A program made the position numbers and the translations under genes. This document shows positions 9,497 to 59,434 of a DNA stretch of 64,000 nt, piece by piece. The DNA comes from Candidatus Micrarchaeota archaeon. Its GTDB lineage: Archaea > Micrarchaeota > Micrarchaeia > Anstonellales > Bilamarchaeaceae. Where the stretch lies: assembly GCA_964588555.1 (NCBI GenBank), contig CAZPPT010000002.1:101979-165978 (forward strand), in the 5' to 3' direction. The notes below the pieces were generated by a model. The model saw only the letters and a program-made list of their open reading frames with translations. It made no database searches and was not told the DNA's origin. The stretch's first letter is position 1. Every line of letters starts with the position of its first letter.

Positions 9497-9790
9497 TTGG
9501 TGATGGTAATGTCAAATATAGTAATAACACATATGTCGTCAAAAGGCCAAGTAGTTATTCCACAGGATATTCGGAAGGAGATACACGCAGAAGAAGGTAC
9601 TGCGTTTGCCGTGTTTGGAAGCAAAGACACAATACTTCTTAAGAAGATTCATAAACCAAACAAAGAGGAACTCAAGAAGGACTGGGAACGGCTTGTTGAA
9701 GAAGGAAATAAAAGAGTAAAGGAACTTGGTATAAAGGAAACGGATGTCGCAAAAATCATTCACCGCGGACGCGGGATTAAATATGATTAA
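9497..9790 (+). CDS. AbrB/SpoVT-family (swapped-hairpin) antitoxin-like protein
   Basis: KGQVVIPQDIRKEI is typical of the AbrB/MazE-like fold. It overlaps the downstream PIN gene. Confidence 0.55.
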   Translation: MVMVMSNIVITHMSSKGQVVIPQDIRKEIHAEEGTAFAVFGSKDTILLKKIHKPNKEELKKDWERLVEEGNKRVKELGIKETDVAKIIHRGRGIKYD

Positions 9791-10106
9791 GATTTTTCTT
9801 GATACAAATGTATTGGTATCCGCTACCTTTTGGAAGGGTAGCGCCTATATCCTAAGAGATTTCAATGCAACTGAAGAAAAGGCAGACGAATACATTCAAA
9901 AATTACTTGAATTTCTGGAAGTAGTTTCACCGACTGAGTATTTCGATATTATAAAAAACGATCCTTCTGATAACAAAATACTTGCAGGGGCTGTTAAATC
10001 TAAATCTGATTTTATTGTTTCCTACGATCGTAAACATGTTTTGGCTCTAAAAAATTTTAAAGGAATATGTATCGTAACGCCGGAAGAGGTTCTTGAAAAG
10101 ATATAA
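9783..10106 (+). CDS. PIN-domain protein (VapC-like toxin)
   Basis: MIKIFLDTNVLVSA N-terminal PIN motif, and SYDRKHV near the C-terminus. ORF listed from 9744; the internal Met at 9783 is preferred. Confidence 0.55.
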   Translation: MIKIFLDTNVLVSATFWKGSAYILRDFNATEEKADEYIQKLLEFLEVVSPTEYFDIIKNDPSDNKILAGAVKSKSDFIVSYDRKHVLALKNFKGICIVTPEEVLEKI

Positions 10107-22081: not shown

Positions 22082-22888
22082 ATGAAAGAAACCATTCAAA
22101 GTCGTTTACATATTTTTAGAGGCTCAGTACGGAAAAGGATATCCGAAACATTAAAACCAACGGCAGAAGGTTTAATTCTCCCAAAGGCAGCCGTAAGCAC
22201 TGCAGTGGTTGCTAAACTAAAAACAGCATATGGGGAATTTGATATGCTAGAACAAGATAATGCTATTGTCATAAACCCAGTATGCCTTGCTGATGAAAAG
22301 CTTGAAAAATTGATACTAGATTTGTTCTTTTTGATAAACAACCCAAACCTTCCTTTAGAAAATCTATCTAATTATTTAGATACGTACGACCCAAAAAATG
22401 ATAGCCAAAGAGAACTCTTAAGGTTTGCAAATAAACTTTTGGGAGTTGCGCGGGATGATCCTGCACTTAAAGGAGGGTTGTTTATACAGGGGCGTGCGGG
22501 TGTTGGAAAAAGCCATATTGCAGTTGCAGTAACAAAAGAAGCGATAAAACTGGGATTAATAGCTCATTTTGTAAGTTCAGATAGGCCCGGGTCATCAGAA
22601 TCTAAACTAGGCCCGGGCCAAGTATGGGTTATTGATGATTTTAATAATGGATACGGAAACGGGGCACATCTCTTTAAAAGTGTGATACTAAATGCACATG
22701 AAAGGGGAGGAGTGGTATTTGTAACAAGTAATTCAACTTACGAAAAGTTACTAGATGAAATGTTTCCGGCGTATTCAGGACCTCATCCAGAAAGGCAGCG
22801 ATATGAGGACCGAACAAGAGGGATGTTTAAAGTGCTAAAAATTGAAGGGGATAGCCATAGGGAGGAACATGCATGGTGGAAAGGCTAG
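22082..22888 (+). CDS. DnaC/IstB-like AAA+ P-loop ATPase
   Basis: Walker A LFIQGRAGVGKSHIAVAV and Walker B VWVIDDF, as in DnaC/IstB helper ATPases. Confidence 0.5.
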   Translation: MKETIQSRLHIFRGSVRKRISETLKPTAEGLILPKAAVSTAVVAKLKTAYGEFDMLEQDNAIVINPVCLADEKLEKLILDLFFLINNPNLPLENLSNYLDTYDPKNDSQRELLRFANKLLGVARDDPALKGGLFIQGRAGVGKSHIAVAVTKEAIKLGLIAHFVSSDRPGSSESKLGPGQVWVIDDFNNGYGNGAHLFKSVILNAHERGGVVFVTSNSTYEKLLDEMFPAYSGPHPERQRYEDRTRGMFKVLKIEGDSHREEHAWWKG

Positions 22889-22997
22889 ACCCACTCTTTT
22901 TAAGAAGTTAGCCCATTATATAGTCTAAAACTGGTTAGTTGGATTACTAGGTGTTATTTAACGAACTAGTTTTGGAAAATAAGTTTTGGTCAAACTT

Positions 22998-23048
22998 CCC
23001 AATTGTTCGGGTTCGAACAATGGGCATCATGTCCGTGCTACGGACATG
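22998..23048. repeat. two adjacent perfect hairpins (ATTGTTCG/CGAACAAT stem and CATGTCCG/CGGACATG stem)
   Basis: Both hairpins were read directly. They lie between the ATPase stop and the tRNA 5' end. Confidence 0.5.
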
Positions 23049-23108
23049 CTTGTTCCTAAAAGTTTGAAGCAGGGATGGCAGAGTCCGGTCAAATGCGCGG
23101 GACTTAAG

Positions 23109-23163
23109 TTGCGCCTTTTCAAAAAGGCGCCCCAAAATTGGTTCGCTAAATGCGAAATAAGTT
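23109..23163 (+). other. tRNA intron 1 (55 nt, canonical position 37/38)
   Basis: It interrupts the anticodon loop after CUUAAG and contains the hairpin GCGCCTTTTCAAAAAGGCGC. Confidence 0.45.
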
Positions 23164-23195
23164 ATCCCGTGACTTAGTGTCTGCGACGGTTCAAA

Positions 23196-23334
23196 GGCTT
23201 TTTGACTTCAGCATTTCTGATGGCAAAAACCCTGGAAAAAGCCCTGAGGGTCAACTCTGATCCTTTTGGTTTTTGGGTCAAGCCTTTTTGATACTAGAAA
23301 ACTAGTTGATAGTAAAAAGGCTTGAACTGATAAT
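23196..23334 (+). other. tRNA intron 2 (~139 nt, non-canonical T-loop position 59/60)
   Basis: It separates GACGG-TTCAAA from T-CCGTC. The exact boundary is ambiguous by 1-2 nt. Confidence 0.4.
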
Positions 23335-23349
23335 CCGTCTCCCTGCATT

Positions 23350-23511
23350 TTATTTTCTCTTTACTGCATGCTTCGTAATCTCAACCGAGCACGAGTGGTG
23401 TTTTTTGCAAAAATCCTCGCAACGCTGCGCGATATCCTTTTCAGAGTATGCAAAGCCGCATGATTCACAGACGAAAACGCTGCCTTCGTTACAGACCTCT
23501 TGTTTCACCAT
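23350..23511 (-). CDS. small zinc-ribbon protein (53 aa)
   Basis: MVKQEVCNEGSVFVCESCGFAYSEKDIAQRCEDFCKKHHSCS has two Cys pairs. It starts 11 nt after the upstream gene's stop and is convergent with the tRNA. Confidence 0.35.
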   Translation of the reverse strand: MVKQEVCNEGSVFVCESCGFAYSEKDIAQRCEDFCKKHHSCSVEITKHAVKRK

Positions 23512-23521
23512 TGCAATCGCC

Positions 23522-24499
23522 TTACAAAATTTTCGCATTCTTTCCGTCAAAATAAACTGTCTCCTCATACCGTAAGCCGTAGTCGTCAAAATAAACTGCC
23601 GGCTCAATTGCAACCGTGGCTCCGTTGATCGGATCCGTCGATTTTTTTCCCAAGCGCGGAGCCTCGTGGACTTCAAGGCCGATACCGTGACCAATGGAAT
23701 GAATCATTTCAGGAAGTGAAAATTGTTTGATAAGTTGGGCGCTGTAAAGTGCAACACCTTTTCCCGTTTTTAATTTTGGCATGTTCGAAACGATTGAGCG
23801 GGTCATTTTAATTAGTTGATTATAAATTCGTTTTCGTTCAGTATTCTTTTTTGTATTTTTTAAGAAAAAACATCTTGTCAAATCAGCGCAATACTGTTTG
23901 TACCTCACGCCATAATCAATAAGCACCATTTCGCCAAGCTTTACATCCCCGCTTCGATAATGGGGGAAGCGTGCGTTTCTGTCTGTTGCGACGATCGGCT
24001 CAAATGCCGGCTCGCAGCCATGCTTTAGGGTTTCAATAAGGAGGTATTTTTTTATATCGACCTCAGTTTTCATTTTTGAAAAATCGATGGAATTGAATAT
24101 TTTTTTGGTGATCGACACGGCGCGGGCAATTTTTGAAACTTCGTCTTTTCTTTTTGTTGTCCGTGCACGCGCGAAAAAATCGCTTTCGTCACGAAGTTTA
24201 CACATTGTTTTTAAGCGCGCCGCAAGGCGTAATGTGATTGTGGTCCCATCGATTCCAACCGCCTTATTTTTTAAGAGCGGCTTGAGCGTTTCAAGTACGC
24301 TTCCTTCATACACGACAACGTCCCCATTAAATCGCTCTTTTGCCAATTTTTCATTGAGGCGCGGCACAATAAGCGTCTTTTTTCCATTTTCCAAAAGTAA
24401 AAACGCATGGTCAATGTCCATGCCTGCATAATAATAGAAGTTCGGATCAAACGCCTCGCCGCGATACAAAAGAAGTGGATGCATGAAAATTGAACGCAA
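23522..24499 (-). CDS. M24-family metallopeptidase (Xaa-Pro aminopeptidase/prolidase-like)
   Basis: HSIGHGIGLEVHEAP and the pita-bread-fold metal ligand pattern. Confidence 0.7.
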   Translation of the reverse strand: MRSIFMHPLLLYRGEAFDPNFYYYAGMDIDHAFLLLENGKKTLIVPRLNEKLAKERFNGDVVVYEGSVLETLKPLLKNKAVGIDGTTITLRLAARLKTMCKLRDESDFFARARTTKRKDEVSKIARAVSITKKIFNSIDFSKMKTEVDIKKYLLIETLKHGCEPAFEPIVATDRNARFPHYRSGDVKLGEMVLIDYGVRYKQYCADLTRCFFLKNTKKNTERKRIYNQLIKMTRSIVSNMPKLKTGKGVALYSAQLIKQFSLPEMIHSIGHGIGLEVHEAPRLGKKSTDPINGATVAIEPAVYFDDYGLRYEETVYFDGKNAKIL

Positions 24500-24513
24500 A
24501 TAAGGAATAAAAA

Positions 24514-27342
24514 CTAGGCGGATAGAACCTTTTTCAAAAATTCCCCTGTATAACTTCGCTTGTTCCCTGCAAGCTCCTCAGGGGTACCGGTTGCAATAAT
24601 TTCGCCGCCCCCACTGCCGCCTTCTGGCCCGAGATCAATGATATAATCGGATGATTTGATCACATCTAAATTGTGCTCAATAATGAAAATCGAGTTGCCC
24701 TTGTCAACCAAGCGATTCAGTACTGCAATAAGCTTTTTCACATCCTCAAAGTGAAGGCCGGTTGTGGGCTCGTCAAGAATATATACGGTATGCCCCTTGT
24801 TTGACTTTGAAAGCTCGCGAGTGATCTTGATGCGCTGCGCTTCGCCGCCTGAAAGCGTGACTGAGGATTGCCCAAGCTTGATATAGCCAAGGCCGACATC
24901 GATTAACGTGCGAAGTTTGCGTTCGATGCGCGGAATGTTCTTGAAGAACTCATATGCCTCCTCGACACTCATGTCAAGGACATCTGCGATGGTCTTGCCC
25001 TTATATGTGACAAGAAGCGTTTCGGAATTGTACCGCTTCCCCTTGCACACCTCGCACTGAATATACACGTCTGGAAGGAAATTCATTTCAATCTTGATTT
25101 GTCCGTCGCCTCTGCAGTTTTCGCAGCGTCCGCCGAAGACGTTAAATGAGAAACGCCCAAGGTCGTAGCCAAGCTCCTTTGCCTCTTTTGTTGCCGCAAA
25201 CAGTTCGCGCATATAGTCAAACACCTTTGTGTAGGTCGCGGGGTTGCTTCGGGGGGTTCGCCCAATCGGCTCCTGGTCAATGTTGATGACTGCGTCAATC
25301 GGAACATTGTATGAAATACGCGCGTGCTTACCGACGCGAAGCACTGAGGAGTATATCGTTTTCATAAGCTGTGCATAGAGGACGTCGTGGACGAGTGTCG
25401 ACTTGCCACTCCCACTTACGCCGGTAATTGCGCAAATGACGTGCGTGGGGAGTTTTATATTTATTTTTTTGAGATTATGCTCCTCGACTCCTTCTAAGAA
25501 TATTGCCCCCTTTTGGATACGGCGTATTTTTGGTATGGGGATCGTGAGATTTCTTGAAAGATACTGGCCGGTAAGGCTTTTTGGATCCGTTTCGACATCA
25601 CGGGGCGTACCTTCTGCAACAATAGTGCCACCGTGAACGCCTGCGCCAGGGCCCATGTCAACAAGCCAATCAGCTGCACGCATCGTGTCCTCGTCATGTT
25701 CAACAACTAAGAGCGTGTTTCCCAAATCACGCAAGCGATGGAGCGTGTCGATCAATTTATGGTTGTCGCGCTGGTGTAGCCCGATTGACGGTTCGTCAAG
25801 CACATAAAGCACACCCATAAGGTTTGAGCCGATCTGTGTTGCAAGCCGGATGCGCTGTGCCTCGCCGCCTGAAAGCGTCCCCGCGCTTCTGGATAAAGTA
25901 AGGTAGCCGACGCCGACGTTTACAAGGAATGCAAGACGTGAATCGATTTCCCTTAGTATGAGGCGCGCAATTTCTTTTTCCTTATCCGTAAGCGTAATCG
26001 ACTTAAAAAAAGCATGTGTATCGACGATTGCCATCTCAGTAACATCGCTGATTGATTTTTCATTGACCCACACAAAGAGCACTTCCTTCTTAAGGCGCTT
26101 TCCGTTGCATGCCGGACAATCGCTTGAACGCATAAATTTCTCCATTTCTTCCCTTCGGTACTCGGATTCGGTCTGCTTGTACAAGCGCTCTGCCTGCGGT
26201 ATGACCCCTTCCCATCCGTTTTCCATATGCATGCTTGCGCCATTGCTCCATCTGCCGTAAAGCGGCTTGGTAATCCCGTACAATAATGCGTCAAGCTGCT
26301 TTTTGCCAAATTCAGACAGTGGCGTATCAAGATCAAAGCCCGCCTCCTTGCCAACGATACGCAATTGTTGGGCACGCCACGTTAAATCAACATTTCCATA
26401 GATTGCGAGTGCGCCCTCGCGTATTGTCTTGCGTTTGTCAGGGATGATAAGATCAGGATCAAACTCCTGCTTAAACCCTAACCCATGACACGCCTCACAC
26501 GCACCAAAGGGAGAGTTAAAGGAAAACATACGCGGCTGCAGTTCCTCAAAACCGATCTCGTGATCCGGGCACGTCGCAAGCGTGGTGAAGAGCTTTTCCC
26601 CCCATATTTCCCCTTGCTCGTAAAGCACAACTACAATACCTTTTGCAAGCACGGTTGCGCTTTCAAGTGCCTGGTGGAGGCGCGAAAGCGTTTGTTTGTC
26701 CTTAGCCACCTGGATTCGGTCGACGACAATTTCAATGGTGTGCTGCTTGTAACGGTCAAGCGTTAATTTCTCGTCAGTTTCCTTTATTTCGCCATTGACG
26801 CGCATACGTGTAAATCCTTGCTTTTTAAATTGGTCGCCGATCCGCTCGTAGGTCCCTTTTTTCTTCCGGATGACAGGTGAAAGTATTTGTATCCGCTTTC
26901 CGTCAAAGCGTTCGAGAACCTGGTCGCGAAGCTGTTCTATCGTTTGCGGCTTAAGCGGCTTTTCACATGCAGGGCAGTGCGGCGTGCCGATACGGGCAAA
27001 AAGGAGACGGAGATAGTCGTATATTTCAGTAACCGTGCCGACTGTTGAACGCGGGTTCTTTGAAGTCGTTTTCTGCTCAATTGAAATTGCAGGAGAAAGT
27101 CCGTCAATTGAATCAACATCCGGCTTATCCATGACGCCTAAGAATTGCCGTGCATATGCGGAGAGCGATTCGACATACCTGCGCTGCCCTTCAGCATAAA
27201 TGGTATCAAACGCAAGCGTTGACTTGCCCGACCCTGAAAGGCCGGTAATGACAATGAACTTGTCACGCGGCAGCGTAACGGTGATGTTTTTGAGATTGTG
27301 TTCTCTTGCGCCTCGTACGATTATGTCTTTCATAAAAGTCAA
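24514..27342 (-). CDS. uvrA: excinuclease ABC subunit A
   Basis: Two ABC modules with Walker A GLSGSGKSTLAFDT and GVSGSGKSTLV, signature LSGGEAQR twice, and zinc-finger Cys clusters. Confidence 0.9.
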   Translation of the reverse strand: MTFMKDIIVRGAREHNLKNITVTLPRDKFIVITGLSGSGKSTLAFDTIYAEGQRRYVESLSAYARQFLGVMDKPDVDSIDGLSPAISIEQKTTSKNPRSTVGTVTEIYDYLRLLFARIGTPHCPACEKPLKPQTIEQLRDQVLERFDGKRIQILSPVIRKKKGTYERIGDQFKKQGFTRMRVNGEIKETDEKLTLDRYKQHTIEIVVDRIQVAKDKQTLSRLHQALESATVLAKGIVVVLYEQGEIWGEKLFTTLATCPDHEIGFEELQPRMFSFNSPFGACEACHGLGFKQEFDPDLIIPDKRKTIREGALAIYGNVDLTWRAQQLRIVGKEAGFDLDTPLSEFGKKQLDALLYGITKPLYGRWSNGASMHMENGWEGVIPQAERLYKQTESEYRREEMEKFMRSSDCPACNGKRLKKEVLFVWVNEKSISDVTEMAIVDTHAFFKSITLTDKEKEIARLILREIDSRLAFLVNVGVGYLTLSRSAGTLSGGEAQRIRLATQIGSNLMGVLYVLDEPSIGLHQRDNHKLIDTLHRLRDLGNTLLVVEHDEDTMRAADWLVDMGPGAGVHGGTIVAEGTPRDVETDPKSLTGQYLSRNLTIPIPKIRRIQKGAIFLEGVEEHNLKKINIKLPTHVICAITGVSGSGKSTLVHDVLYAQLMKTIYSSVLRVGKHARISYNVPIDAVINIDQEPIGRTPRSNPATYTKVFDYMRELFAATKEAKELGYDLGRFSFNVFGGRCENCRGDGQIKIEMNFLPDVYIQCEVCKGKRYNSETLLVTYKGKTIADVLDMSVEEAYEFFKNIPRIERKLRTLIDVGLGYIKLGQSSVTLSGGEAQRIKITRELSKSNKGHTVYILDEPTTGLHFEDVKKLIAVLNRLVDKGNSIFIIEHNLDVIKSSDYIIDLGPEGGSGGGEIIATGTPEELAGNKRSYTGEFLKKVLSA

Positions 27343-27472
27343 TCCGTTAAAAGTGAGTATTCACTTCTTTTTGGAGGCGTTATAATAAAAAACAACGCCA
27401 AACAAAGGTTTTAACCCATCTACAACAATCATCAATCACAAAGAATATAAATTTTGAAGCATTGATGGAACT

Positions 27473-29437
27473 TTATAAATACGTCCTCAGTTCCGCAGCC
27501 TCATCCCGTAACCGGATTGCCTCTTCAAATTGCAAGCTCTCTGCGGCAATCTGCATCTGCGTTTCAAGCTCAACAATCTTCTTATGCAGTTCCTCTTTAG
27601 AAAGGGTTGTTTTTCCCTTCTTGGTAATCTTACGAATCGGGCTTGCCTCAATTTCAGGGTCAAGCGCAACCTGGGATATATTTTTGCGAATTGTCCGTGG
27701 GGTAATGCCGTGCTTTTTGTTATATTCAATCTGCTTTTCACGCCTTATTTTTGTAGTTTCAACTGCCCCTTTGATCGAGCGCGTAATCGTATCTGCATAG
27801 AGGATGACCCGCCCGCGCTCATTGCGTGCCGCCCTTCCTATAGTCTGGATAAGTGAACGTTCATTCCGTAAAAATCCTTCCTTGTCCGCATCAAGTATTG
27901 CAACAAGGCTTACCTCTGGCAGATCCAATCCTTCACGCAAGAGATTGACACCAACAAGGCAGTCAAACACCCCTAAGCGCAATTGCTGGATGAGTTTATT
28001 ACGCTCAATCGTATCGATCTCAGAATGAAGGTACTTAGCCTTTACATCCTTCTCATTTAAGTAGCGTGCAATCTCCTCAGCCATCTTCTTGGTGAGTGTG
28101 GTAACAAGAACGCGTCCTTTTTGTGCAACCTCTTTACGAATTTCTTCGATTGCATTATTTACCTGGTTTGTAAGTGGCCGGATCTCGACACTTGGGTCTA
28201 GGAGGCCGGTTGGCCTGATGATTTGTTCAACAACTTGCCCCGAAATTTTCAATTCATACTCAGCAGGAGTTGCAGATACGAAGATGACATGATTGAAATA
28301 CTTTTGAACTTCTTCAAATTTAAGAGGCCGGTTGTCAAGCGCACTTGGGAGCCTAAACCCATAGTCTACCAGGGTCTGCTTTCGGGAGCGATCGCCCTTG
28401 TACATGCCGTGGAGTTGGGGGACAGTAACGTGTGATTCGTCGATAACAAGAAGAAAGTCCTTTGGAAAGTAATCAAGCAGGCAAAAGGGAGGTTGCCCTT
28501 CGCTTCGGTTTTCAAAATGCCGCGAATAGTTCTCAATGCCATTACAGTAGCCAAGTTCCTGGATCATCTCCAAATCATAGAGCGTGCGCTGCTTTAGGCG
28601 GTGTGATTCAAGTAATTGAAGTTGTGGCAAGCGTTCTTCAAGCTCTGCCTTAATGGAAGTTACTGCATTGGCAAGTTCATCATCACTGACCATATAGTGC
28701 TTTGCAGGGAAAATAAGGAGCTGGTCGCTCCTAAATTTTTCAGTATAGTTGATCGGGTCTAGGGTGCGGATGGACTCAATTTCATCACCAAAATACTCAA
28801 TGCGGATGATGTCCTCATCATAGCCAAGGATAAGGTCGATAACGTCGCCCTTTACCCGAAAACGGCCTGGCACAAGCGCTGCGTCATTTCGTTCGTATTG
28901 TAGGTCGACAAGGCGGGAAATGAGTTCGCTGCGGACAATTGATTTACCTTTTTTAACAAGGATGCTGAATTTTTCAAAATTCGCAGGCGAACCTAAGCCA
29001 TAGATGCATGAGACGCTCGCAACAATAATAACGTCCCGACGAGACAAAAGTGACGCGGTCGCGCGCAAGCGAAGCTGCTCTATTTTCTCATTAACCTTTG
29101 AATCCTTCTCGATATACGTATCGGACGCAGGCAGGTAGCTTTCAGGTTGGTAATAGTCATAATAGGAAACGAAATATTCAACCCGATTATTTGGAAATAA
29201 CTCCTTAAACTCCAGAAAAAGTTGTGCTGCAAGCGTCTTATTGTGCGCAAGCACGAGTGTTGGCATTTTAAGCTGCCTAATGACGTGTGAGACGGTAAAG
29301 GTTTTACCTGAGCCGGTAATGCCAAGAAGCGTCTGAAGGCTATGCTTTTGCGCCCCTTCCACGAGCTTCTTTATTGCATCAGGCTGCGAGCCCATCGGCA
29401 TCTTGTCAGTAACAATCTCAAAATCCATGTGCATCAA
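27473..29437 (-). CDS. uvrB: excinuclease ABC subunit B
   Basis: Helicase motif I LLGITGSGKTFT, DESH box (VIDESHVT), and the C-terminal UvrB/UvrC-interaction helix. Confidence 0.9.
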   Translation of the reverse strand: MMHMDFEIVTDKMPMGSQPDAIKKLVEGAQKHSLQTLLGITGSGKTFTVSHVIRQLKMPTLVLAHNKTLAAQLFLEFKELFPNNRVEYFVSYYDYYQPESYLPASDTYIEKDSKVNEKIEQLRLRATASLLSRRDVIIVASVSCIYGLGSPANFEKFSILVKKGKSIVRSELISRLVDLQYERNDAALVPGRFRVKGDVIDLILGYDEDIIRIEYFGDEIESIRTLDPINYTEKFRSDQLLIFPAKHYMVSDDELANAVTSIKAELEERLPQLQLLESHRLKQRTLYDLEMIQELGYCNGIENYSRHFENRSEGQPPFCLLDYFPKDFLLVIDESHVTVPQLHGMYKGDRSRKQTLVDYGFRLPSALDNRPLKFEEVQKYFNHVIFVSATPAEYELKISGQVVEQIIRPTGLLDPSVEIRPLTNQVNNAIEEIRKEVAQKGRVLVTTLTKKMAEEIARYLNEKDVKAKYLHSEIDTIERNKLIQQLRLGVFDCLVGVNLLREGLDLPEVSLVAILDADKEGFLRNERSLIQTIGRAARNERGRVILYADTITRSIKGAVETTKIRREKQIEYNKKHGITPRTIRKNISQVALDPEIEASPIRKITKKGKTTLSKEELHKKIVELETQMQIAAESLQFEEAIRLRDEAAELRTYL

Positions 29438-31029
29438 CTAAGTGGCATACGCCTTATTTCTTTCTGGCGCAATAGCCTATTATATGAAATTGCAAATCGG
29501 TGCGCCTCGTTTCTGACCTGCTCAAGAAGAAGAAGCCCGCGGGATTTTTGGTCAAGAAGGATCGGTGCTGAATCAGGCCGTACATATATGGACTCAAACT
29601 CCTTTGCAAGGCCGATACACGGGACATTCACGTTCAATTCCTCAAGACTCTGGAGCGCAAAACGTAGCTGCGGCGAACCACCATCAATGACTATTAAATC
29701 GGGGAGCGCTTTTTTCTCGTCAAGTAAGCGCCTATAGCGTCGATACACGACCTCACGAATCGATGCAAAATCATCCTGATAAGATACAGTCCTAATTTTG
29801 AAGCGTCGATACTGGGATTTATTTGCTTTTCCATTCCTGAACTGGACCATCGACCCGACGATAAACTGATCTCCAGTATTCGAAATATCAAAACACTCGA
29901 TGACGTGCGGAATGGTTGGAAGCGATAAGGCGTCTTGAAGTTCCTGCAATGCAGGGTATTCTGAGACAAGCTGCATCTGTGCATTCTTATATGCAATGGC
30001 AAGGAGCTCCTTTTTTGTTCCTTTTTGTGGGACTGTAATGGAGATAGTTGAATTTCCCTGATTTTCCTTCTTAAGTGTCGAAAGTGTCTCAAGCACAAGG
30101 GACTGGTTAGGTAGCTCGGATGCAAGAAGTAGTTCCTGCGGGATCGGGTTTGAGGCATAATAGCGGATAATAAAATCCTCAAAGAACTGCTCGCCTACTT
30201 CTTGTTTTGAATAGAGGAACGGCTGGAGTTGGGTGATGACCCCCTTCTGGATCTTGAGGACGACAAGTGCGATTTGAGTTCTCGAGCTATCGATTACAAT
30301 AACATGTTGGTCGTACGGAATTGAAGTTTCGACAACCTGTTTTTCCAAAAGCCCTTCAAGCGCCTGGTAGTTGTCGCGATATTCACGCGCCTTTTCATAA
30401 TTTTTATTTTTTGATGCGTTGTTCATCCCTTCTTTATACTGGGCGATTAGCTCGTTTACGTTCCCGTTAAGGACCCGGACCGCGTCGCGGACATTTTTAC
30501 CATACTCATCACTCGAAATGCGCGCAATGCACGGGGCAGAACACATCCCAATGTCAAAATAAAGGCAGGGCCGCTTTGGCATAGTGGTGCAGCTTCGTAT
30601 CTTATAGACGCGTTTAATGACTTCCATAAGCCTGTTTCGGTATTGGGCTGAAGTAAACGGCCCAAAACGCTTTCCCTTGTCTTTTTTGTTTCGTGAGACA
30701 AAAATACGCGGGAATTGACCATCAGAAAGCATGATCCACGATAAACGTTCGGCATCCTTAAGCTGGATATTAAATGGCGGCCGGTGATTTCTAATAAGAC
30801 GAGCTTCCAAAATCCATGCCTCGCGCTCGTTGCGAACAGCAATTGTTTCAAGATGTGCAATATTCGCCACAAGTTCAGCCGTTTTTCCCGTTTGTGTACC
30901 GTTAAAATAGGATGAAACGCGTTTCTTTAGGTCCTTTGCCTTGCCGATGTATAATATTTCGCCCTCGCTATTCTTATAGATATAGCAGCCCGGCTCGTGC
31001 GGAATAGTATAGAGAGAAAAGTCAATCAC
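29434..31029 (-). CDS. uvrC: excinuclease ABC subunit C
   Basis: GIY-YIG N-terminus (PGCYIYKNSEGEILYIGKAKDLKKR), Cys-rich UvrBC domain, and C-terminal HhH. It overlaps uvrB by 4 nt. Confidence 0.85.
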   Translation of the reverse strand: MIDFSLYTIPHEPGCYIYKNSEGEILYIGKAKDLKKRVSSYFNGTQTGKTAELVANIAHLETIAVRNEREAWILEARLIRNHRPPFNIQLKDAERLSWIMLSDGQFPRIFVSRNKKDKGKRFGPFTSAQYRNRLMEVIKRVYKIRSCTTMPKRPCLYFDIGMCSAPCIARISSDEYGKNVRDAVRVLNGNVNELIAQYKEGMNNASKNKNYEKAREYRDNYQALEGLLEKQVVETSIPYDQHVIVIDSSRTQIALVVLKIQKGVITQLQPFLYSKQEVGEQFFEDFIIRYYASNPIPQELLLASELPNQSLVLETLSTLKKENQGNSTISITVPQKGTKKELLAIAYKNAQMQLVSEYPALQELQDALSLPTIPHVIECFDISNTGDQFIVGSMVQFRNGKANKSQYRRFKIRTVSYQDDFASIREVVYRRYRRLLDEKKALPDLIVIDGGSPQLRFALQSLEELNVNVPCIGLAKEFESIYVRPDSAPILLDQKSRGLLLLEQVRNEAHRFAISYNRLLRQKEIRRMPLS

Positions 31030-31074: not shown

Positions 31075-31872
31075 CTACCTGGGAAACCCAAGCGCCGCTT
31101 TCTTCATTTTATATGCAAACTCCATAAGGAGTCTGAGGTTCTCGATATCTGCACTATTGTAGCGGATAAGCGTTTCAAGCGCTCCGCTGTCGCCTTTCTT
31201 ATACTTACGCCAGAGACGAACTGCATCAAATCCAGTAAGGTGTGCTATATCGCCATCACGCTCAAACCCGAATTCTTTCTCAATCTTCTTAAGCCCGCCC
31301 TTGTACCCGAGTGATCGAAGAACAAACCGTAAATCAATATGAAGTAAGGGGATTTGGATTTCAGGAACTTGTGCGCGCAAAAATGGGATATCAAACATCG
31401 TCCCGTTAAATGTTATGACTGCTTTATATGGCGCGAGCGCATGCGGGAGTTCGTCGATATTTTTTCCTTGTACGAACGTTTTGGTCGTTTTTCCATCATA
31501 TAAGCCAACAACAGTTACCTCGCTATGGTGCGGCACAAGACCGGTTGTCTCAATATCTAAAAATACAGTTTTCTCTGCAAAGTGGGGCCATGAGCGCCAT
31601 GTCTCTTTTGATGGAATAACTGATGAAAAATAGGTGCTGTTTAATTCATGGAGCGCCACTTTTGATGAGAAAATTTCGGGGATAAATCGGCTAAATTTCG
31701 CATGGTTCTGACATGTGTCAAGAAACTGATCCCATGTTCTGATCCCTTCTTCCCATAATTTTAATTCAGTTTTTTGTCCTACTGACGGAAGATGAATGAA
31801 TGTGTTTTCGAGCATGTGACTGTTTATCAGACAAATGATAAAAAGCTTTATGCGCTCTGAAGCGATTTCCAT
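31075..31872 (-). CDS. RNase H-like (DEDD-type) 3'-5' exonuclease domain protein, YprB/COG3359-like
   Basis: FLDIETTGL (Exo I) and HSEVTVVGLYDG, as seen in exonuclease family members. Confidence 0.5.
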   Translation of the reverse strand: MEIASERIKLFIICLINSHMLENTFIHLPSVGQKTELKLWEEGIRTWDQFLDTCQNHAKFSRFIPEIFSSKVALHELNSTYFSSVIPSKETWRSWPHFAEKTVFLDIETTGLVPHHSEVTVVGLYDGKTTKTFVQGKNIDELPHALAPYKAVITFNGTMFDIPFLRAQVPEIQIPLLHIDLRFVLRSLGYKGGLKKIEKEFGFERDGDIAHLTGFDAVRLWRKYKKGDSGALETLIRYNSADIENLRLLMEFAYKMKKAALGFPR

Positions 31873-33083
31873 TCAACTAATCCAAAAAAGAAAAGAGGCC
31901 GTCGAACGCGATCAACGATTCCTGGATGAGTCAAGATTATTTTTTTTCGTGCCTTAAAATTCTTAAACTGTGAAATACCTTTTTTGGTACCCCCGATTTC
32001 AATAATCGTATCGGCAAAAAGATAATCTGGTGTCTTGCCTCCACGTGTAGATTTTAAATAAAAATACTCCTGACCTGAAAAGCGGAGTGTTTCAACAAAA
32101 AAATCCTCACGAAGTGCGCCAATACAGTCGTCTTTACTTTTGTAAAGTAATCTAAATGGAAGGGAAAGAAGTATTTTAGGTTCCTTAAGTACATTTGTTC
32201 CGGTAGGGAATACCTGTGTAAGCACAAACGACTGTTCAAGCAGTTTTACATATTTTTCTGCCTTATATTTTGTAATACCCAAATTGCGGCTTAGTGATGT
32301 ATAATTTAGATCTTCTGCAGGTGATTTACCAATAAATGAAACGATATTTCTGATGTCGCGGATTTCTTCTGGTACAATAAGACCTGCTTTTGGCAGATCA
32401 TTTGCAATGATACGTTCAAGCATAGTACTAAATAAGGACATATAATCACTTTTTCCAAGAGTGAATGGATAACTCCTTCCGACTAGGTACGATTCGAATA
32501 GTGTCTCGTACGTAAGCACTTTTCCATAATATTCCCGTGATTTTTTCTCCTCAAACAGGTGAGCAAAAGAAAATTCTGGAATAATTTCGCCTTTTTCGAA
32601 TGTAATAAATTCTCTAAAGGTAAATGGCGGACACAATACAATTCGTACGCGTCGCGAAAGGTCAACTGCCGCCTGTGATAGTGAAAGTGCAACTGAGCCA
32701 CTAAAGATAACCATAATTGCAAGTACATCAAATATTTTTTTTAGATCTTCCTGAAAACGAGGATAAAACTGTATTTCATCTAAAATAAGATATCGGACCC
32801 CGCGACTTTCTAATTCCCTTGCAAGTTCGTAGAGTGACGGAACGGAACTGTTGTCAAGTGAAACGTAGAACGCGTTTTCCGTTTCAGCCAAGAGCTGCTT
32901 TAAAAGAATTGTTTTTCCGACACCTCGCGGTCCAACAAGACCGATAAAAATACGCTCGTTAAGGTGAGAACGAAGATACGAATAGATTGATCGCTTTTTT
33001 GTATAGCGCTTTCCTTCTTCGCGCGCCTTTTCGTTGAGTTCGATTAATTCCTGCTGCATAGAAATATAATAAATAGAAAACAT
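31848..33083 (-). CDS. AAA-superfamily ATPase of the archaeal ATPase/DUF4143 type
   Basis: Walker A LVGPRGVGKTILLKQ and Walker B YLILDEIQ. Confidence 0.6.
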   Translation of the reverse strand: MFSIYYISMQQELIELNEKAREEGKRYTKKRSIYSYLRSHLNERIFIGLVGPRGVGKTILLKQLLAETENAFYVSLDNSSVPSLYELARELESRGVRYLILDEIQFYPRFQEDLKKIFDVLAIMVIFSGSVALSLSQAAVDLSRRVRIVLCPPFTFREFITFEKGEIIPEFSFAHLFEEKKSREYYGKVLTYETLFESYLVGRSYPFTLGKSDYMSLFSTMLERIIANDLPKAGLIVPEEIRDIRNIVSFIGKSPAEDLNYTSLSRNLGITKYKAEKYVKLLEQSFVLTQVFPTGTNVLKEPKILLSLPFRLLYKSKDDCIGALREDFFVETLRFSGQEYFYLKSTRGGKTPDYLFADTIIEIGGTKKGISQFKNFKARKKIILTHPGIVDRVRRPLFFFGLVEWKSLQSA

Positions 33084-33345: not shown

Positions 33346-33732
33346 TTACACCATCCCAATCTTCGCACGCGATTTCATAGTAATTGTGCGAAGGTCAGCC
33401 TGTTTAGAGCGTAAACGCAATACCTTGTCATTCGTGCAAACAATAGCACGGTGCTCTTTAGCATAATTCAAAATCCACTTGTCTACGTGCCCCTCTGATT
33501 CTACATACGTAATCCATTTTTCATGTGCGTCAAGTATCTTAAGCGCAAGCCGCGCCCCAAGTGCATGCCTGCCCTTGTGATTTGCAATTTTTTCAAGCTC
33601 TGTCCGCACACCGGTTGGGACGATAACATCATATGCCCCTTCTACGAGTTGATGAAGCTCTGAAAAAATATCAATATGGAACTGATATGGGATAAGGAGG
33701 AAATTCGTATCGAGGATTACCTTTTTTTTCAT
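33346..33732 (-). CDS. PIN-domain nuclease (Fcf1/VapC-like)
   Basis: MKKKVILDTNFLLIPYQF N-terminal PIN motif, and IVCTNDKVL near the C-terminus. Confidence 0.5.
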   Translation of the reverse strand: MKKKVILDTNFLLIPYQFHIDIFSELHQLVEGAYDVIVPTGVRTELEKIANHKGRHALGARLALKILDAHEKWITYVESEGHVDKWILNYAKEHRAIVCTNDKVLRLRSKQADLRTITMKSRAKIGMV

Positions 33733-34626: not shown

Positions 34627-35934
34627 ATGAAACTCACATTTTTTGGCGGTGCGGGAGAAGTGGGACGGAGTTCTTTTCTTCTAGAAGACAAAGAGAAAAA
34701 CCTCCTTCTTGACTGCGGCATAAAGCTTGGTGAAAAAACCGAATACCCGCTTATCGGGGACAGCGAGCTAAAACGCATAGACAACATTTTTATTTCACAC
34801 GCACACCTTGACCATTCGGGCTACTTGCCGCACGTATTTGCACGCGACAGAAAAGCGAATATATTTTTAACAAAACCAACGCGCGACCTGCTTGGTGTTC
34901 TCTTAAGCGACTACCATCGCCTGCAAAAGGAAAAGGATGAACCAAACAAGTTCAGCCAAAAGGACGTGAACTCAATAATGGAAACTGCTTCAATTGTTGA
35001 ATTTGGCACCCCTGCTGCGATACCGTTTGAAAGCACGCTTCATAATGCCGGCCATGTGCTTGGAAGCGCAATGCTTCGGATCAATGAAAAAAACGGCATC
35101 CTTTATACGGGGGACATATGCGTTCGTAATACGCGCATTCTTGATGGGTGCGAACGAAATATCGCGGCAGAAACGCTTATTATTGAGAGCACGTACGGAA
35201 ACAAGGAAGATACGATTCCAAGCTACAAAGAAGCTGGTGCGAAACTTGTTGCAAGCATAAACAAGACGCTTGACGCAGGCGGGCATGTGATTATCCCAAG
35301 TTTTGCAATTGGACGGGCGCAGGAACTCCTCCTCATGCTAGATGATTATATGCGAAGTGGCGCACTCCGAAAAGCAAGTATATTTGTTGAAGGCATGATA
35401 ACAAAGGCACTCCGTATTTATCGCCATAACGCATATTATGCAAATGAGGACATCAAAAAAAGAATCCTCATGAGCGAGGACGACCCGTTCAAAAGCAAGT
35501 TCTTTCATGTATCTCGAAGCAAGGAACGGCTTGACGTACTCCGCGAGCCATCGATAATCGTTACAACATCGGGTATGCTTACTGGCGGGCCGGTTCACTT
35601 TTATTTAGACAAGCTTGGGAACGACCCAAAAAACAAGCTCATATTTGTAGGATACCAGGCAGAAGGGACGCCGGGGCGAAAAATCATTGAGGGCGAACGC
35701 GAAATCATGCTTGGCCCCAAGGGAAAGGAACATGCGCTTAAGATCGGCCTCCAGGTTGAATCGGTCAGGATGTCCGGGCATGCTGATTACAATGAGCTTC
35801 TCCAATTTATAAAAAGCGTACGGAACCTAAAGCGCGTCATTCTTGTCCATGGCGAAAAGCAGGACCTCCGAACGGCATTGGAAAGAAAATACGAAGTCAT
35901 AGCCCCAAAACTTGGGGAGACGATCTCGTTTTAG
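34627..35934 (+). CDS. beta-CASP metallo-beta-lactamase-fold ribonuclease (aCPSF/RNase J-like, short form)
   Basis: MBL motif II HAHLDHSG, downstream beta-CASP Asp/His motifs, about 435 aa. Confidence 0.65.
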   Translation: MKLTFFGGAGEVGRSSFLLEDKEKNLLLDCGIKLGEKTEYPLIGDSELKRIDNIFISHAHLDHSGYLPHVFARDRKANIFLTKPTRDLLGVLLSDYHRLQKEKDEPNKFSQKDVNSIMETASIVEFGTPAAIPFESTLHNAGHVLGSAMLRINEKNGILYTGDICVRNTRILDGCERNIAAETLIIESTYGNKEDTIPSYKEAGAKLVASINKTLDAGGHVIIPSFAIGRAQELLLMLDDYMRSGALRKASIFVEGMITKALRIYRHNAYYANEDIKKRILMSEDDPFKSKFFHVSRSKERLDVLREPSIIVTTSGMLTGGPVHFYLDKLGNDPKNKLIFVGYQAEGTPGRKIIEGEREIMLGPKGKEHALKIGLQVESVRMSGHADYNELLQFIKSVRNLKRVILVHGEKQDLRTALERKYEVIAPKLGETISF

Positions 35935-41100: not shown

Positions 41101-41143
41101 TTATCATATTTATACCCTTTAAATATTTAATCATATGTTACGG

Positions 41144-51570: not shown

Positions 51571-51960
51571 TCATTTCAAAAATAATACCTTTTTTTCACC
51601 TTTAAAGTGATTTTCATCACCTGTAATGATAGTTAAATCATGTAAACGAGCTTGCGCCATTATAATAACGTCCACGATGCCAATATCCTTGAATACTTTT
51701 CTCTTTTCGACGTATAGGTAGGCCGCATATTTACTTACCTCGTTATCAACTGGAATAGATTTTGAAAAAGAGTTTATTGTTACATACGCTTCATCTGGAA
51801 CTTTACCGTTTTTCAATAGTTTTATCATTACTTCAGCAATTGACAGAGTAGAGGTAAAAATTTCATTTGAGTTATTTTCTATCAATTGTTTTACCTTTTC
51901 TCCTTTACTACTTCCATCAAAATATTCGATCCACGCATACCTGTCAAGAATATATTTAGT
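51571..51960 (-). CDS. PIN-domain toxin (VapC-like)
   Basis: MTKYILDRYAWIEYF, and VDVIIMAQARLHDLTIITGDENHF near the C-terminus. ORF listed to 52017. Confidence 0.5.
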   Translation of the reverse strand, partial: TKYILDRYAWIEYFDGSSKGEKVKQLIENNSNEIFTSTLSIAEVMIKLLKNGKVPDEAYVTINSFSKSIPVDNEVSKYAAYLYVEKRKVFKDIGIVDVIIMAQARLHDLTIITGDENHFKGEKKVLFLK

Positions 51961-59421: not shown

Positions 59422-59434
59422 GTCAATCAGCAAA

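What the first reader, a model, noticed from the sequence alone, without database searches (positions are those of the whole stretch)
23069..23348. tRNA-Leu(UAA) interrupted by two introns, including a ~139-nt intron at non-canonical T-loop position 59/60
The exon pieces reconstitute a canonical class-II tRNA-Leu. The acceptor stem is 7 bp, GCAGGGA/TCCCTGC, with its halves 270 nt apart. The D-arm GCAGAGTCCGGTCAAATGCG is nearly identical in pattern to archaeal tRNA-Leu. The anticodon arm is CGGGA-CUUAAGA-UCCCG, and the T-arm is GACGG-TTCAAAT-CCGTC. A 55-nt intron sits at 37/38, and a much larger one splits the T-loop. Non-canonical and multiple tRNA introns are restricted to particular archaeal lineages, and a 139-nt T-loop intron is unusually long.
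Basis: seen in the sequence. Interest (0 to 1): 0.7.

Follow-up and report, generated by a model that had tools for sequence, protein, structure and literature searches.

The report
Twice-interrupted tRNA-Leu gene in a Micrarchaeote
This is a real leucine tRNA gene of a tiny DPANN archaeon (Micrarchaeota), split by two protein-spliced introns, one of them a long one in the T-loop; this gene layout is already known for the lineage, so the main value is recovering a gene that standard tRNA finders miss.

Summary
Window 23069-23347 (+) holds three colinear exons (40, 32 and 14 nt). Joined, they give an 86-nt class-II tRNA-Leu(UAA) that ARAGORN accepts. ARAGORN and Rfam find no tRNA anywhere in the native 64 kb.

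- **Intron 1:** 55 nt at 37/38.
- **Intron 2:** 138 nt (not 139) at 59/60 in the T-loop.
- **Splice motifs:** both junctions form a relaxed bulge-helix-bulge motif. This is an outer helix, a 3-nt bulge holding the 3' cut, a 4-position central helix, and the 5' cut in a multiloop.
- **Junction proof:** intron-less tRNA-Leu(UAA) genes from metagenomes run uninterrupted across both predicted junctions.
- **Conserved cores:** Micrarchaeota orthologs carry 57-nt and 90-nt introns at 37/38 with the same CUUA/UAAG core. Ten tRNA-Leu genes, counting this one, carry 59/60 introns of 23-274 nt with the same core.

Neighbouring proteins place the window in Micrarchaeota. In that lineage, 59/60 introns, multi-intron tRNAs and a broad-specificity epsilon2 endonuclease are already published (ARMAN-2).

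Verdict: a genuine intron-containing tRNA gene and a new member of a known kind. The T-loop intron is long but not the longest in the lineage. Splicing itself is inferred; no RNA data were available and no endonuclease gene lies in the window.

The parts
23069..23108 (+). Exon 1: tRNA positions 1-37. It holds the acceptor 5' strand, the D arm, the anticodon-stem 5' strand and anticodon-loop bases C32-G37 with anticodon UAA.
   Evidence: Sequence. ARAGORN on the spliced product. The D arm and anticodon arm are identical to the intron-less L150 gene.
23109..23163 (+). Intron 1: 55 nt at the canonical position 37/38. It folds into three small hairpins.
   Evidence: ARAGORN -i reports this exact intron once intron 2 is removed. 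Folding z-score is -3.7. Orthologs L049 and L143 carry 90-nt and 57-nt introns at the same site.
23103..23106 (+). Central helix of the intron 1 splice motif, 5' strand CUUA (positions 32-35). It is followed by the bulge A36 G37 | U that holds the 5' cut.
   Evidence: The unconstrained minimum-energy fold of 23098-23169 pairs CUUA with UAAG. L049 and L143 show the same core.
23158..23161 (+). Central helix of the intron 1 splice motif, 3' strand UAAG. It is followed by the 3-nt bulge UU | A38 that holds the 3' cut, then the anticodon stem.
23164..23195 (+). Exon 2: positions 38-59. It holds A38, the anticodon-stem 3' strand, the 15-nt variable arm, the T-stem 5' strand GACGG and T-loop bases UUCAAA.
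23196..23333 (+). Intron 2: 138 nt at the non-canonical T-loop position 59/60. It folds into three hairpins with G+C-clamped A/U-tract stems.
   Evidence: Folding z-score is -4.5. There is no second copy in the window or in the fetched loci. An independent Logan contig is 100% identical over intron bases 19-138 and the 3' exon.
23190..23193 (+). Central helix of the intron 2 splice motif, 5' strand U54 U55 C56 A57. It is followed by the bulge A58 A59 | G that holds the 5' cut. The T stem 23185-23189 / 23335-23339 is the outer helix.
23328..23331 (+). Central helix of the intron 2 splice motif, 3' strand UGAU. It pairs A57-U, C56-G and U55-A, with a U54-U mismatch. It is followed by the bulge AA | U60 that holds the 3' cut.
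   Evidence: The other nine 59/60 introns have UGAA, UGGA, CGAA or AGAA at this spot, followed by the 3' bulge (AA|U in seven, AG|U and UG|U in two).
23334..23347 (+). Exon 3: U60, the T-stem 3' strand CCGUC, the acceptor 3' strand UCCCUGC and the discriminator A73. No CCA is encoded.
23348..23363 (+). T-rich trailer TTTTATTTTCTCTTTA directly after the discriminator. It is the presumed oligo-T transcription stop.
   Evidence: Sequence. Related Micrarchaeota tRNA-Leu genes have a T run at the same place. Function is inferred.

Best explanation
Window 23069-23347 (+) is a functional tRNA-Leu(UAA) gene of a Micrarchaeota (DPANN) archaeon, interrupted by two protein-spliced introns.

**Proposed pathway**
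1. The gene is transcribed as a precursor of about 280 nt or more, ending at the T run after the discriminator.
2. The exons fold into the cloverleaf.
3. Each exon-intron boundary forms a relaxed bulge-helix-bulge motif.
   - Intron 1: the anticodon stem is the outer helix, CUUA/UAAG is the 4-bp central helix, the 5' cut lies in AG|U and the 3' cut in the bulge UU|A.
   - Intron 2: the T stem is the outer helix, UUCA/UGAU is the central helix (3 bp plus a U-U mismatch), the 5' cut lies in AA|G and the 3' cut in the bulge AA|U.
4. The archaeal splicing endonuclease EndA cuts after the second base of each 3-nt bulge. In this lineage the enzyme is probably the broad-specificity epsilon2 type.
5. 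An RtcB-type ligase joins the exons.
6. CCA is added, giving an 89-nt tRNA that reads UUA (and UUG).

**What is shown:** gene anatomy, junctions, motif geometry, conservation in relatives and the need for the tRNA.

**What is inferred:** the identity of the enzymes, the cuts themselves and expression.
For: 1. Removing 23109-23163 and 23196-23333 yields an 86-nt sequence that ARAGORN calls tRNA-Leu(taa). It has 7-bp acceptor, 5-bp anticodon and 5-bp T stems, a class-II variable arm and discriminator A.
2. Intron-less homologs L150/L154 and L151-L153 read ...CGGGACTTAAGATCCCG... and ...GGTTCAAATCC... without interruption, exactly across both predicted junctions. The spliced window tRNA is 75/87 identical to L150.
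3. On nine tRNA-Leu(UAA) orthologs the cloverleaf has 98.6% of cells paired and 16 of 23 pairs with changes on both sides. None of 500 shuffles reached this, and slid controls gave 36-58% paired. The window's own T stem, GACGG/CCGTC, carries lineage-specific compensated pairs on either side of the 138-nt intron.
4. The intron 1 motif appears in the unconstrained minimum-energy fold. The same CUUA/UAAG, AG|N, NN|A core is seen in orthologs with unrelated 57-nt and 90-nt introns.
5. For intron 2, 35 of 111 parsed tRNA-Leu-like genes have a T-loop insertion; the set includes the window gene and comes mostly from Micrarchaeota and other DPANN archaea. Ten of these sit at 59/60 with T stem + UUCA (UUCG in one, L056) paired to 4 intron bases + a 3-nt 3' bulge (AA|U in eight). 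Their lengths are 23, 23, 25, 33, 42, 76, 95, 96, 138 and 274 nt. All nine relatives, the window gene and five 58/59-class genes give a valid tRNA-Leu once the insertion is removed. L149 has the same 37/38 + 59/60 double-intron layout.
6. A fold constrained to the cloverleaf plus both motifs costs only 7.8 kcal/mol more than the minimum-energy fold (-97.6 against -105.4).
7. TTA makes up 11 per 1000 codons in 16 confident genes of the window, so a UAA-anticodon tRNA is needed.
8. The neighbouring peptidase has its best hits (47-62% identity) in Micrarchaeota. ARMAN-2, a Micrarchaeote, has 56% disrupted tRNA genes, introns at 59/60 and an epsilon2 EndA that cleaves a 59/60 relaxed motif in vitro (PMC3239211; PMC12397907).
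9. A T run follows the discriminator, as in related genes.
Against: - No RNA data were available, so neither expression nor splicing is shown.
- No EndA or RtcB gene lies in the 64 kb (Pfam on 58 ORFs), so the enzyme type in this genome is unknown.
- The central helix of intron 2 has only 3 of 4 pairs (U54-U mismatch). Neither intron has an inner helix, so both 5' cuts sit in a multiloop. Several other 59/60 introns of the class have a strict motif by my reading of the sequences.
- The unconstrained minimum-energy fold of the whole precursor does not form the intron 2 central helix.
- Intron 2 contains three T5 runs that could act as premature archaeal terminators. Related introns carry such runs too.
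- No TATA-like box sits 25-35 nt upstream, where the L150-L153 genes have one. Two hairpins occupy the leader instead.
- Another, uninterrupted tRNA-Leu(UAA) copy elsewhere in the genome cannot be excluded from one window.
Confidence: 0.9

Rival explanations
1. It is a dead tRNA gene. The 138-nt piece is an insertion in the T-loop that cannot be spliced out, and another gene supplies tRNA-Leu(UAA).
For: The intron 2 motif is imperfect, with a U-U mismatch and no inner helix. The intron holds T5 runs, and no obvious promoter sits at the usual distance. The rest of the genome was not available.
Against: All 23 cloverleaf pairs of the spliced product are intact, including lineage-specific compensated T-stem pairs that flank the insertion. 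The 3' end of the insertion carries the same UGAn-AA|U signature as the other 59/60 introns. I estimate a chance match to that signature at well under 1%. Nine related genes carry insertions of 23-274 nt at the same site and give valid tRNAs once these are removed. UUA codons are in regular use.
Confidence: 0.05
2. It is an assembly artefact. Intron 2 is a chimeric join or a mis-assembled repeat inside a normal tRNA gene.
For: The independent Logan contig of run SRR5011273 stops inside intron 2, at window 23214, so the 5' junction of intron 2 is supported by one assembly only.
Against: The Logan contig is 100% identical over 4271 nt, including intron bases 19-138, the 3' junction and exon 3. 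The intron has no other copy in the window or in the fetched loci. A chimera would not be expected to supply a class-typical splice motif at the exact T-loop position used in related genomes.
Confidence: 0.02
3. Intron 2 is more than spacer. After excision it is a functional or mobile RNA, for example a C/D-box guide RNA as in the haloarchaeal tRNA-Trp intron, a stable circular RNA, or a spreading intron family. This adds to the main explanation rather than replacing it.
For: The intron is strongly structured (z -4.5, no shuffle out of 200 as stable). G+C-clamped A/U-tract hairpins run at 6.6 per kb in 23 long DPANN tRNA introns against 0.13 per kb in 1.85 Mb of flanking sequence. Window intron 1 (CCTTTTCAAAAAGG) and an Iainarchaeum tRNA-Ser intron (L112, CCTTTTCAAAAAAGG) share an almost identical hairpin.
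Against: There is no canonical C box (RUGAUGA); the best candidates are CUGAUGG and UUGAUAG. The only C/D-family hit in Rfam is at chance level (snoU61, 14 bits against a threshold of 55, E = 9). Intron 2 has no significant sequence similarity to any other fetched intron. At 138 nt it is too short to encode a homing enzyme.
Confidence: 0.1
4. One or both insertions are self-splicing group I introns, as in the classic bacterial and plastid tRNA-Leu(UAA) intron.
For: tRNA-Leu(UAA) is the best-known host of a group I intron (general knowledge). Group I introns have been reported in archaea, in a paper that mentions Micrarchaeota (PMC6125680, listed, not read).
Against: At 55 and 138 nt, both are far below the size of a group I core. 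Neither the gathering-threshold nor the permissive Rfam search gave an intron-family hit. Both insertions sit at bulge-helix-bulge positions with the matching geometry.
Confidence: 0.01

Closest known systems
ARMAN-2 (Candidatus Micrarchaeum acidiphilum) disrupted tRNA genes: pre-tRNA-Cys(GCA) with a 13-nt intron at 59/60 and pre-tRNA-Pro(GGG) with two T-loop introns, cut by the epsilon2 splicing endonuclease (PMC3239211, PMC3488258, PMC12397907)
   Same: Same phylum-level lineage by protein similarity. Same non-canonical position 59/60. Same relaxed motif in which the 5' cut is not in a closed bulge. Same habit of placing several introns in one tRNA gene.
   Different: The tRNA is different (Leu-UAA). 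The intron is about ten times longer than the tested tRNA-Cys substrate (138 against 13 nt). Here 59/60 is combined with a canonical 37/38 intron. The endonuclease of this genome has not been seen.
Multi-intron tRNA genes of Thermoproteales, Thaumarchaeota and Korarchaeota (up to three introns, non-canonical positions; spliced by (alpha-beta)2 EndA)
   Same: Colinear exons, bulge-helix-bulge or relaxed motifs at each junction, and protein-catalysed splicing. The genes are missed by standard tRNA finders (PMC8450103).
   Different: The lineage is different (DPANN, and the G+C content of 47% does not suggest a hyperthermophile). The likely enzyme architecture also differs.
Micrarchaeota tRNA-Leu T-loop introns found here (58/59 class and 59/60 class; for example L100 95 nt, L056 96 nt, L083 274 nt, L149 double-intron)
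   Same: Identical splice-site core for the 59/60 class: the T stem, UUCA paired to four intron bases, and the bulges AA|N and AA|U. L149 has the same 37/38 + 59/60 layout.
   Different: In this sample the window gene is the only UAA isoacceptor with a T-loop intron. Its central helix has one mismatch, and the interior sequence is unrelated.
Haloarchaeal tRNA-Trp intron (about 100 nt) carrying a C/D-box guide RNA
   Same: A long intron, near or above 100 nt, removed through a bulge-helix-bulge motif.
   Different: That intron sits at the canonical position and has clear C/D boxes. Intron 2 here has neither (and inspection).

Membership tests
Archaeal bulge-helix-bulge (protein-spliced) tRNA intron | Removing the intron restores a canonical cloverleaf tRNA. 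| tested here: met
   ARAGORN calls the joined exons tRNA-Leu(taa). All 23 stem pairs are formed and covary among orthologs. Intron-less homologs are continuous across both junctions.
Archaeal bulge-helix-bulge (protein-spliced) tRNA intron | Both cuts lie two bases into 3-nt bulges on opposite strands, separated by a 4-bp helix, with an outer helix next to the 3' bulge. | tested here: met
   Intron 1: CUUA/UAAG 4/4, AG|U and UU|A, with the anticodon stem as outer helix. Intron 2: UUCA/UGAU 3/4 with a U-U mismatch, AA|G and AA|U, with the T stem as outer helix.
Archaeal bulge-helix-bulge (protein-spliced) tRNA intron | Strict form of the motif: an inner helix closes the 5' bulge. | tested here: not met
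   In both introns the central helix opens into a three-hairpin multiloop. The motifs are therefore the relaxed bulge-helix-loop type, which needs a broad-specificity endonuclease (PMC3239211).
Archaeal bulge-helix-bulge (protein-spliced) tRNA intron | The genome encodes a splicing endonuclease able to cut relaxed motifs at non-canonical positions, plus an RtcB-type ligase. | not testable with these tools
   Pfam scans of 58 ORFs covering the window found neither enzyme. The rest of the genome could not be reached.
Archaeal bulge-helix-bulge (protein-spliced) tRNA intron | A spliced mature tRNA, and an excised intron, are detectable in RNA. | not testable with these tools
   No transcript data were accessible.
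Micrarchaeota 59/60 T-loop intron class | The insertion lies between positions 59 and 60, with the T stem as outer helix and T-loop positions 54-57 paired to the four intron bases that precede the 3' bulge (usually AA|U60). | tested here: met
   The window has UGAU-AA|U. The nine other members have UGAA, UGGA, CGAA or AGAA, followed by AA|U (seven), AG|U (L104) or UG|U (L056). All nine relatives and the window gene give a tRNA-Leu after removal of the insertion.
Micrarchaeota 59/60 T-loop intron class | The host is a Micrarchaeota genome. | tested here: met
   The named homologs of the adjacent M24 peptidase are almost all Micrarchaeota or Bilamarchaeum, at 47-62% identity. The D-arm pattern of this tRNA retrieves mostly Micrarchaeota genomes.
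Group I intron of tRNA-Leu(UAA) | A catalytic core of roughly 200 nt or more that matches the group I covariance model, inserted within the anticodon. | tested here: not met
   The insertions are 55 and 138 nt, at 37/38 and 59/60. Rfam gave no hit at the gathering threshold or up to E = 10.
C/D-box guide RNA housed in a tRNA intron | A C box (RUGAUGA) and a D box (CUGA) brought together by a terminal stem, with guide spacers of about 12 nt. | tested here: not met
   There is no canonical C box. The only C/D-family Rfam match scores 14 bits against a threshold of 55 (E = 9).
Split or permuted tRNA gene | The tRNA pieces are encoded at separate loci or in permuted order. | tested here: not met
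   The three exons are colinear within 279 nt on one strand.

The most novel reading that the evidence does not exclude
The long, highly structured T-loop intron belongs to a loosely related population of DPANN tRNA introns built from G+C-clamped A/U-tract hairpins. These introns would spread between tRNA genes and positions, or persist after excision as stable, probably circular, RNAs with a role of their own. They would then be more than neutral spacers tolerated by a permissive endonuclease.
Probability: 0.1. Interest if true: 0.55.

Novelty: new member of a known kind. Interest (0 to 1): 0.3.

Why it matters
**Practical value.** This is the only credible tRNA gene in the 64 kb, and it is invisible to ARAGORN and to the Rfam tRNA model. 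Such misses make DPANN genomes look as if they lack essential tRNAs, a problem already noted for DPANN and Asgard genomes (PMC5829648). Annotating it restores the decoder for UUA codons, which this genome uses at 11 per 1000.

**Biological value.** It adds one well-supported case, and with the comparison set a small catalogue. In Micrarchaeota tRNA-Leu genes, T-loop introns fall into two sharply defined splice-site classes, 58/59 and 59/60. They range from 10 to 274 nt. This extends the known substrate range that the lineage's endonuclease must handle.

It does not change how tRNA splicing is understood.

Tried and rejected
- **Synteny.** I hoped to find the orthologous tRNA next to the M24 peptidase in relatives. 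The closest homolog (62% identity) sits in a different neighbourhood with no tRNA-Leu beside it.
- **Exact-protein look-ups.** Look-ups for UvrB and for the upstream ORF, meant to fetch further copies of the locus, found nothing on record.
- **Viral contig scan.** The scan with a broad tRNA-Leu pattern served only to learn the tool's behaviour. Its 22 hits were not used.
- **Rfam.** The gathering-threshold search of the window and a permissive search on 22800-23600 gave only chance-level hits such as miRNA and sRNA families.
- **Mobile repeat.** BLAST of both introns against the window and all fetched loci found no other copies.
- **C/D-box RNA.** No canonical boxes are present.
- **Other splice positions for intron 2.** Positions 58/59 and 57/58 give the same product, but no central helix forms.
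- **Other hidden tRNAs.** ARAGORN with lowered thresholds gave only implausible calls with kilobase-scale introns. My structural scans found nothing else credible.
- **Splicing enzymes.** A search of the window for EndA or RtcB found none.

Full report
**1. What is in the sequence**

| Piece | Coordinates | Length | Content |
|---|---|---|---|
| Exon 1 | 23069-23108 | 40 nt | acceptor 5' strand GCAGGGA, U8, D arm GCAGAGTCCGGTCAAATGCG, anticodon-stem 5' strand CGGGA, loop CUUAAG |
| Intron 1 | 23109-23163 | 55 nt | |
| Exon 2 | 23164-23195 | 32 nt | A38, UCCCG, 15-nt variable arm, T-stem 5' strand GACGG, UUCAAA |
| Intron 2 | 23196-23333 | 138 nt | |
| Exon 3 | 23334-23347 | 14 nt | U60, CCGUC, UCCCUGC, discriminator A |

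ARAGORN and Rfam at gathering thresholds find no tRNA anywhere in the native 64 kb. Joined, the three exons give an 86-nt sequence that ARAGORN calls tRNA-Leu(taa). With intron 2 alone removed, ARAGORN in intron mode finds the gene and reports the 55-nt intron by itself.

A loose structural scan of both strands of the window looked for a 7-bp acceptor pair up to 650 nt apart, a D arm and a T stem with TTC. It returned five candidates. Only this one has G+C-rich stems and canonical tRNA features.

**2. Whose genome it is**

The flanking genes are an M24 peptidase (23522-24499, -) and uvrA, uvrB and uvrC (24514-31029, -). The peptidase finds an identical protein on a 166-kb NCBI contig and in a Logan assembly of SRR5011273. 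Its next-best hits are 47-62% identical. The named ones are almost all Candidatus Micrarchaeota or Bilamarchaeum.

Most come from Micrarchaeota and most of the rest from other DPANN archaea; a few lie on contigs labelled as other archaea or bacteria. The host is therefore a Micrarchaeote without a close sequenced relative.

**3. Are the junctions right?**

A metagenome scan with the exact D arm plus the CTTAAG loop returned five contigs. All carry intron-less tRNA-Leu(UAA) genes.
- L150 and L154 have the same anticodon arm, CGGGACTTAAGATCCCG, uninterrupted.
- All five have an uninterrupted GGTTCAAATCC T loop.

These are exactly the products predicted by joining the window's exons. The spliced window tRNA is 75/87 identical to L150.

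On an alignment of nine tRNA-Leu(UAA) orthologs (three intron-less, six spliced in silico), the cloverleaf has 98.6% of cells paired. Sixteen of 23 pairs show changes on both sides. None of 500 shuffles reached these values, and sliding the partners by 1-3 columns drops pairing to 36-58%. The window's T stem GACGG/CCGUC carries its own compensated pairs on the two sides of the 138-nt intron. The halves have therefore been kept complementary.

**4. Can the introns be spliced?**

*Intron 1.* The unconstrained minimum-energy fold of 23098-23169 gives the anticodon stem, then CUUA (32-35) paired with UAAG, and a 3-nt bulge UU|A38 before the stem. The 5' site AG|U lies at the entry to a three-hairpin multiloop. 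Orthologs L049 and L143 have introns of 90 and 57 nt with unrelated interiors but the same core: CUUA/UAAG, AG|N and NN|A.

*Intron 2.* Sequence alone allows 57/58, 58/59 or 59/60. Only 59/60 gives a motif:
- the T stem is the outer helix;
- U54 U55 C56 A57 faces UGAU, with three pairs and one U-U mismatch;
- the 5' site is AA|G;
- the 3' bulge is AA|U60.

A fold constrained to the cloverleaf plus both motifs is 7.8 kcal/mol above the minimum-energy fold (-97.6 against -105.4). Neither intron has an inner helix, so both motifs are the relaxed bulge-helix-loop type.

**5. Comparison with relatives**

I parsed 111 tRNA-Leu-like genes, counting the window gene, mostly from Micrarchaeota and other DPANN archaea. 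Thirty-five have an insertion in the T loop. They fall into two sharp classes.

| Class | Central helix | Bulges | Members |
|---|---|---|---|
| 58/59 | G53 U54 U55 C56 with GAAC-type intron bases (GAAC, GAAU or GGAC) | AA\|N and AA\|A | 19 tRNA-Leu(CAA) genes with 10-15 nt, plus three of 63, 78 and 79 nt |
| 59/60 | UUCA (UUCG in L056) with UGAA, UGGA, CGAA, AGAA or UGAU | AA\|N, and AA\|U in eight (AG\|U and UG\|U in two) | lengths 23, 23, 25, 33, 42, 76, 95, 96, 138 (this gene), 274 |

Three further insertions (33, 61 and 81 nt) have an unclear motif.

Fifteen of these genes were checked: all ten 59/60 members (the window and L083 included) and five from the 58/59 class. All give a valid tRNA-Leu in ARAGORN once the T-loop insertion is removed. 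L149 has the same 37/38 + 59/60 double-intron layout as the window gene. Several short 59/60 members have a strict motif with an inner helix (my reading of the sequences). The window's version is among the more relaxed.

The 138-nt intron is thus a member of a lineage-wide class. It is long, but not the longest.

**6. Other supporting and cautionary points**

Supporting:
- TTA is 11 per 1000 codons in 16 confident genes, so the genome needs this tRNA.
- A T-rich tract follows the discriminator, as in related genes.
- Both introns are more structured than shuffles (z -4.5 and -3.7).
- They have no other copies in the window or in 0.9 Mb of fetched DPANN sequence.
- The Logan contig is 100% identical to window 23214-27484. 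An independent assembly therefore supports intron bases 19-138, the 3' junction and exon 3.

Cautionary:
- The Logan contig ends inside the intron, so it does not cover the 5' junction.
- Intron 2 contains three T5 runs.
- No TATA-like box lies 25-35 nt upstream, where L150-L153 have one.
- No EndA or RtcB gene is in the window.
- No RNA data were available.

**7. What is known already**

- Fujishima et al. 2011 (PMC3239211) showed that 56% of tRNA genes in ARMAN-2, a Micrarchaeote, are disrupted. The cases include tRNA-Cys(GCA) with a 13-nt relaxed-motif intron at 59/60 and tRNA-Pro(GGG) with introns at 53/54 and 59/60. The three-unit epsilon2 endonuclease cuts both canonical and 59/60 substrates in vitro.
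- A structure of that enzyme bound to RNA explains the tolerance for relaxed bulges (PMC12397907).
- Hirata and colleagues noted that tRNA sets of new DPANN genomes are incomplete because disrupted genes go undetected (PMC5829648).
- A review gives less than 100 nt as the usual size of protein-spliced tRNA introns (PMC4033280).

The finding therefore works like, and passes the testable membership criteria of, the Micrarchaeota 59/60 intron class. I could not test the enzyme or the RNA product.

**8. Rivals**

- Pseudogene, about 5%. It is argued against by the intact and compensated stems, the class-typical 3' splice signature and the codon usage.
- Assembly artefact, about 2%. It is argued against by the independent contig and by the motif sitting at the class position.
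- Group I intron, about 1%. It is excluded by size and by the Rfam searches.
- A functional or mobile intron RNA remains possible as an addition to the main explanation, about 10%. The only hints are the strong structure and a roughly 50-fold enrichment of G+C-clamped A/U-tract hairpins in long DPANN tRNA introns over background. There are no C/D boxes.

**9. Verdict**

This is a genuine tRNA-Leu(UAA) gene with a canonical 55-nt intron and a 138-nt T-loop intron at 59/60, both with relaxed bulge-helix-bulge motifs, in a Micrarchaeota genome. It is a new member of a known kind.

Interest is modest (0.3). It is useful for annotation and as part of a small catalogue of T-loop intron classes and sizes, but it is not surprising to a specialist.

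Noticed in passing
window 23005-23052 (+), just upstream of the tRNA: Two adjacent stable hairpins (z -3.4, no shuffle out of 200 as stable) fill positions -64 to -17 of the tRNA leader. No TATA-like box lies at -25 to -35, where the related genes L150-L153 have TTTATAAAA or TTTAAAAA. A/T-rich boxes lie further upstream, near 22953 and 22978. This suggests a structured leader of about 60 nt, or co-transcription with the upstream ORF.
   Followed up: partly
window 23350-23511 (-): A small Cys-rich ORF of 53 aa (MVKQEVCNEGSVFVCESCGFAYSEKDIAQRCEDFCKKHHSCSVEITKHAVKRK) follows the peptidase gene. It converges on the tRNA, and its stop codon lies 3 nt from the tRNA discriminator. It looks like a zinc-ribbon protein; no family search was run.
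   Followed up: partly
window 23214; locus L001 (Logan SRR5011273_107000): The independent Logan contig is identical to the window but ends 19 nt inside intron 2. This could reflect a coverage drop, a hairpin-related problem or a sequence variant in the first intron hairpin. It cannot be resolved without the reads.
   Followed up: partly
window introns 23109-23163 and 23196-23333; introns in L135, L112, L088, L042, L050: Hairpins built as two G/C pairs plus a run of 4-7 U pairing with a run of 4-7 A occur at 6.6 per kb in 23 long DPANN tRNA introns, against 0.13 per kb in 1.85 Mb of surrounding sequence. Window intron 1 (CCTTTTCAAAAAGG) and an Iainarchaeum tRNA-Ser intron (L112, CCTTTTCAAAAAAGG) share an almost identical hairpin. 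The reason is unknown.
   Followed up: partly
loci L030-L149 (mostly Micrarchaeota tRNA-Leu genes): T-loop introns fall into two precise splice-site classes. The 58/59 class has 19 short introns of 10-15 nt, all in tRNA-Leu(CAA), plus three long ones. The 59/60 class runs from 23 to 274 nt. L083 (Micrarchaeota archaeon S014_66_esom) has a 274-nt T-loop intron full of AGAAAGAA/TTCTTTCT hairpins.
   Followed up: partly
L042 (33 nt), L118 (61 nt), L078 (81 nt): A third type of T-loop insertion starts TTC-NN-GC-TTTTT and ends GCCCAAAAA-T. I could not place a convincing bulge-helix-bulge motif on it. The splice position may be 56/57, or the motif may be of another relaxed kind.
   Followed up: no
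L111, L121, L130: tRNA-Leu genes of Woesearchaeota, Nanoarchaeia and Micrarchaeota have insertions inside or next to the anticodon stem, which are other non-canonical positions. They were not parsed further.
   Followed up: no
L063, L093, L039, L108, L115, L129, L134, L138: Contigs labelled Alphaproteobacteria, Saccharimonadales or 'uncultured Methanosarcinales' carry DPANN-type tRNA-Leu genes, some with DPANN-style introns. These contigs are probably mis-binned or mislabelled.
   Followed up: no
window 35931-44458 (-) and 58129-63987 (-): Several large ORFs (1183, 554 and 1104 aa; then 467, 625, 415 and 456 aa) have no Pfam match at E <= 1e-5.
   Followed up: no
window 31848-33083 (-), 52584-53894 (-), 52001-54000: Two AAA_14/DUF4143 ATPase genes and several PIN-domain genes (9744-10106, 33346-33732, 51571-52017) are present. 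The segment 52001-54000 has markedly low G+C (0.34 against 0.47 for the window), which may indicate acquired DNA.
   Followed up: no
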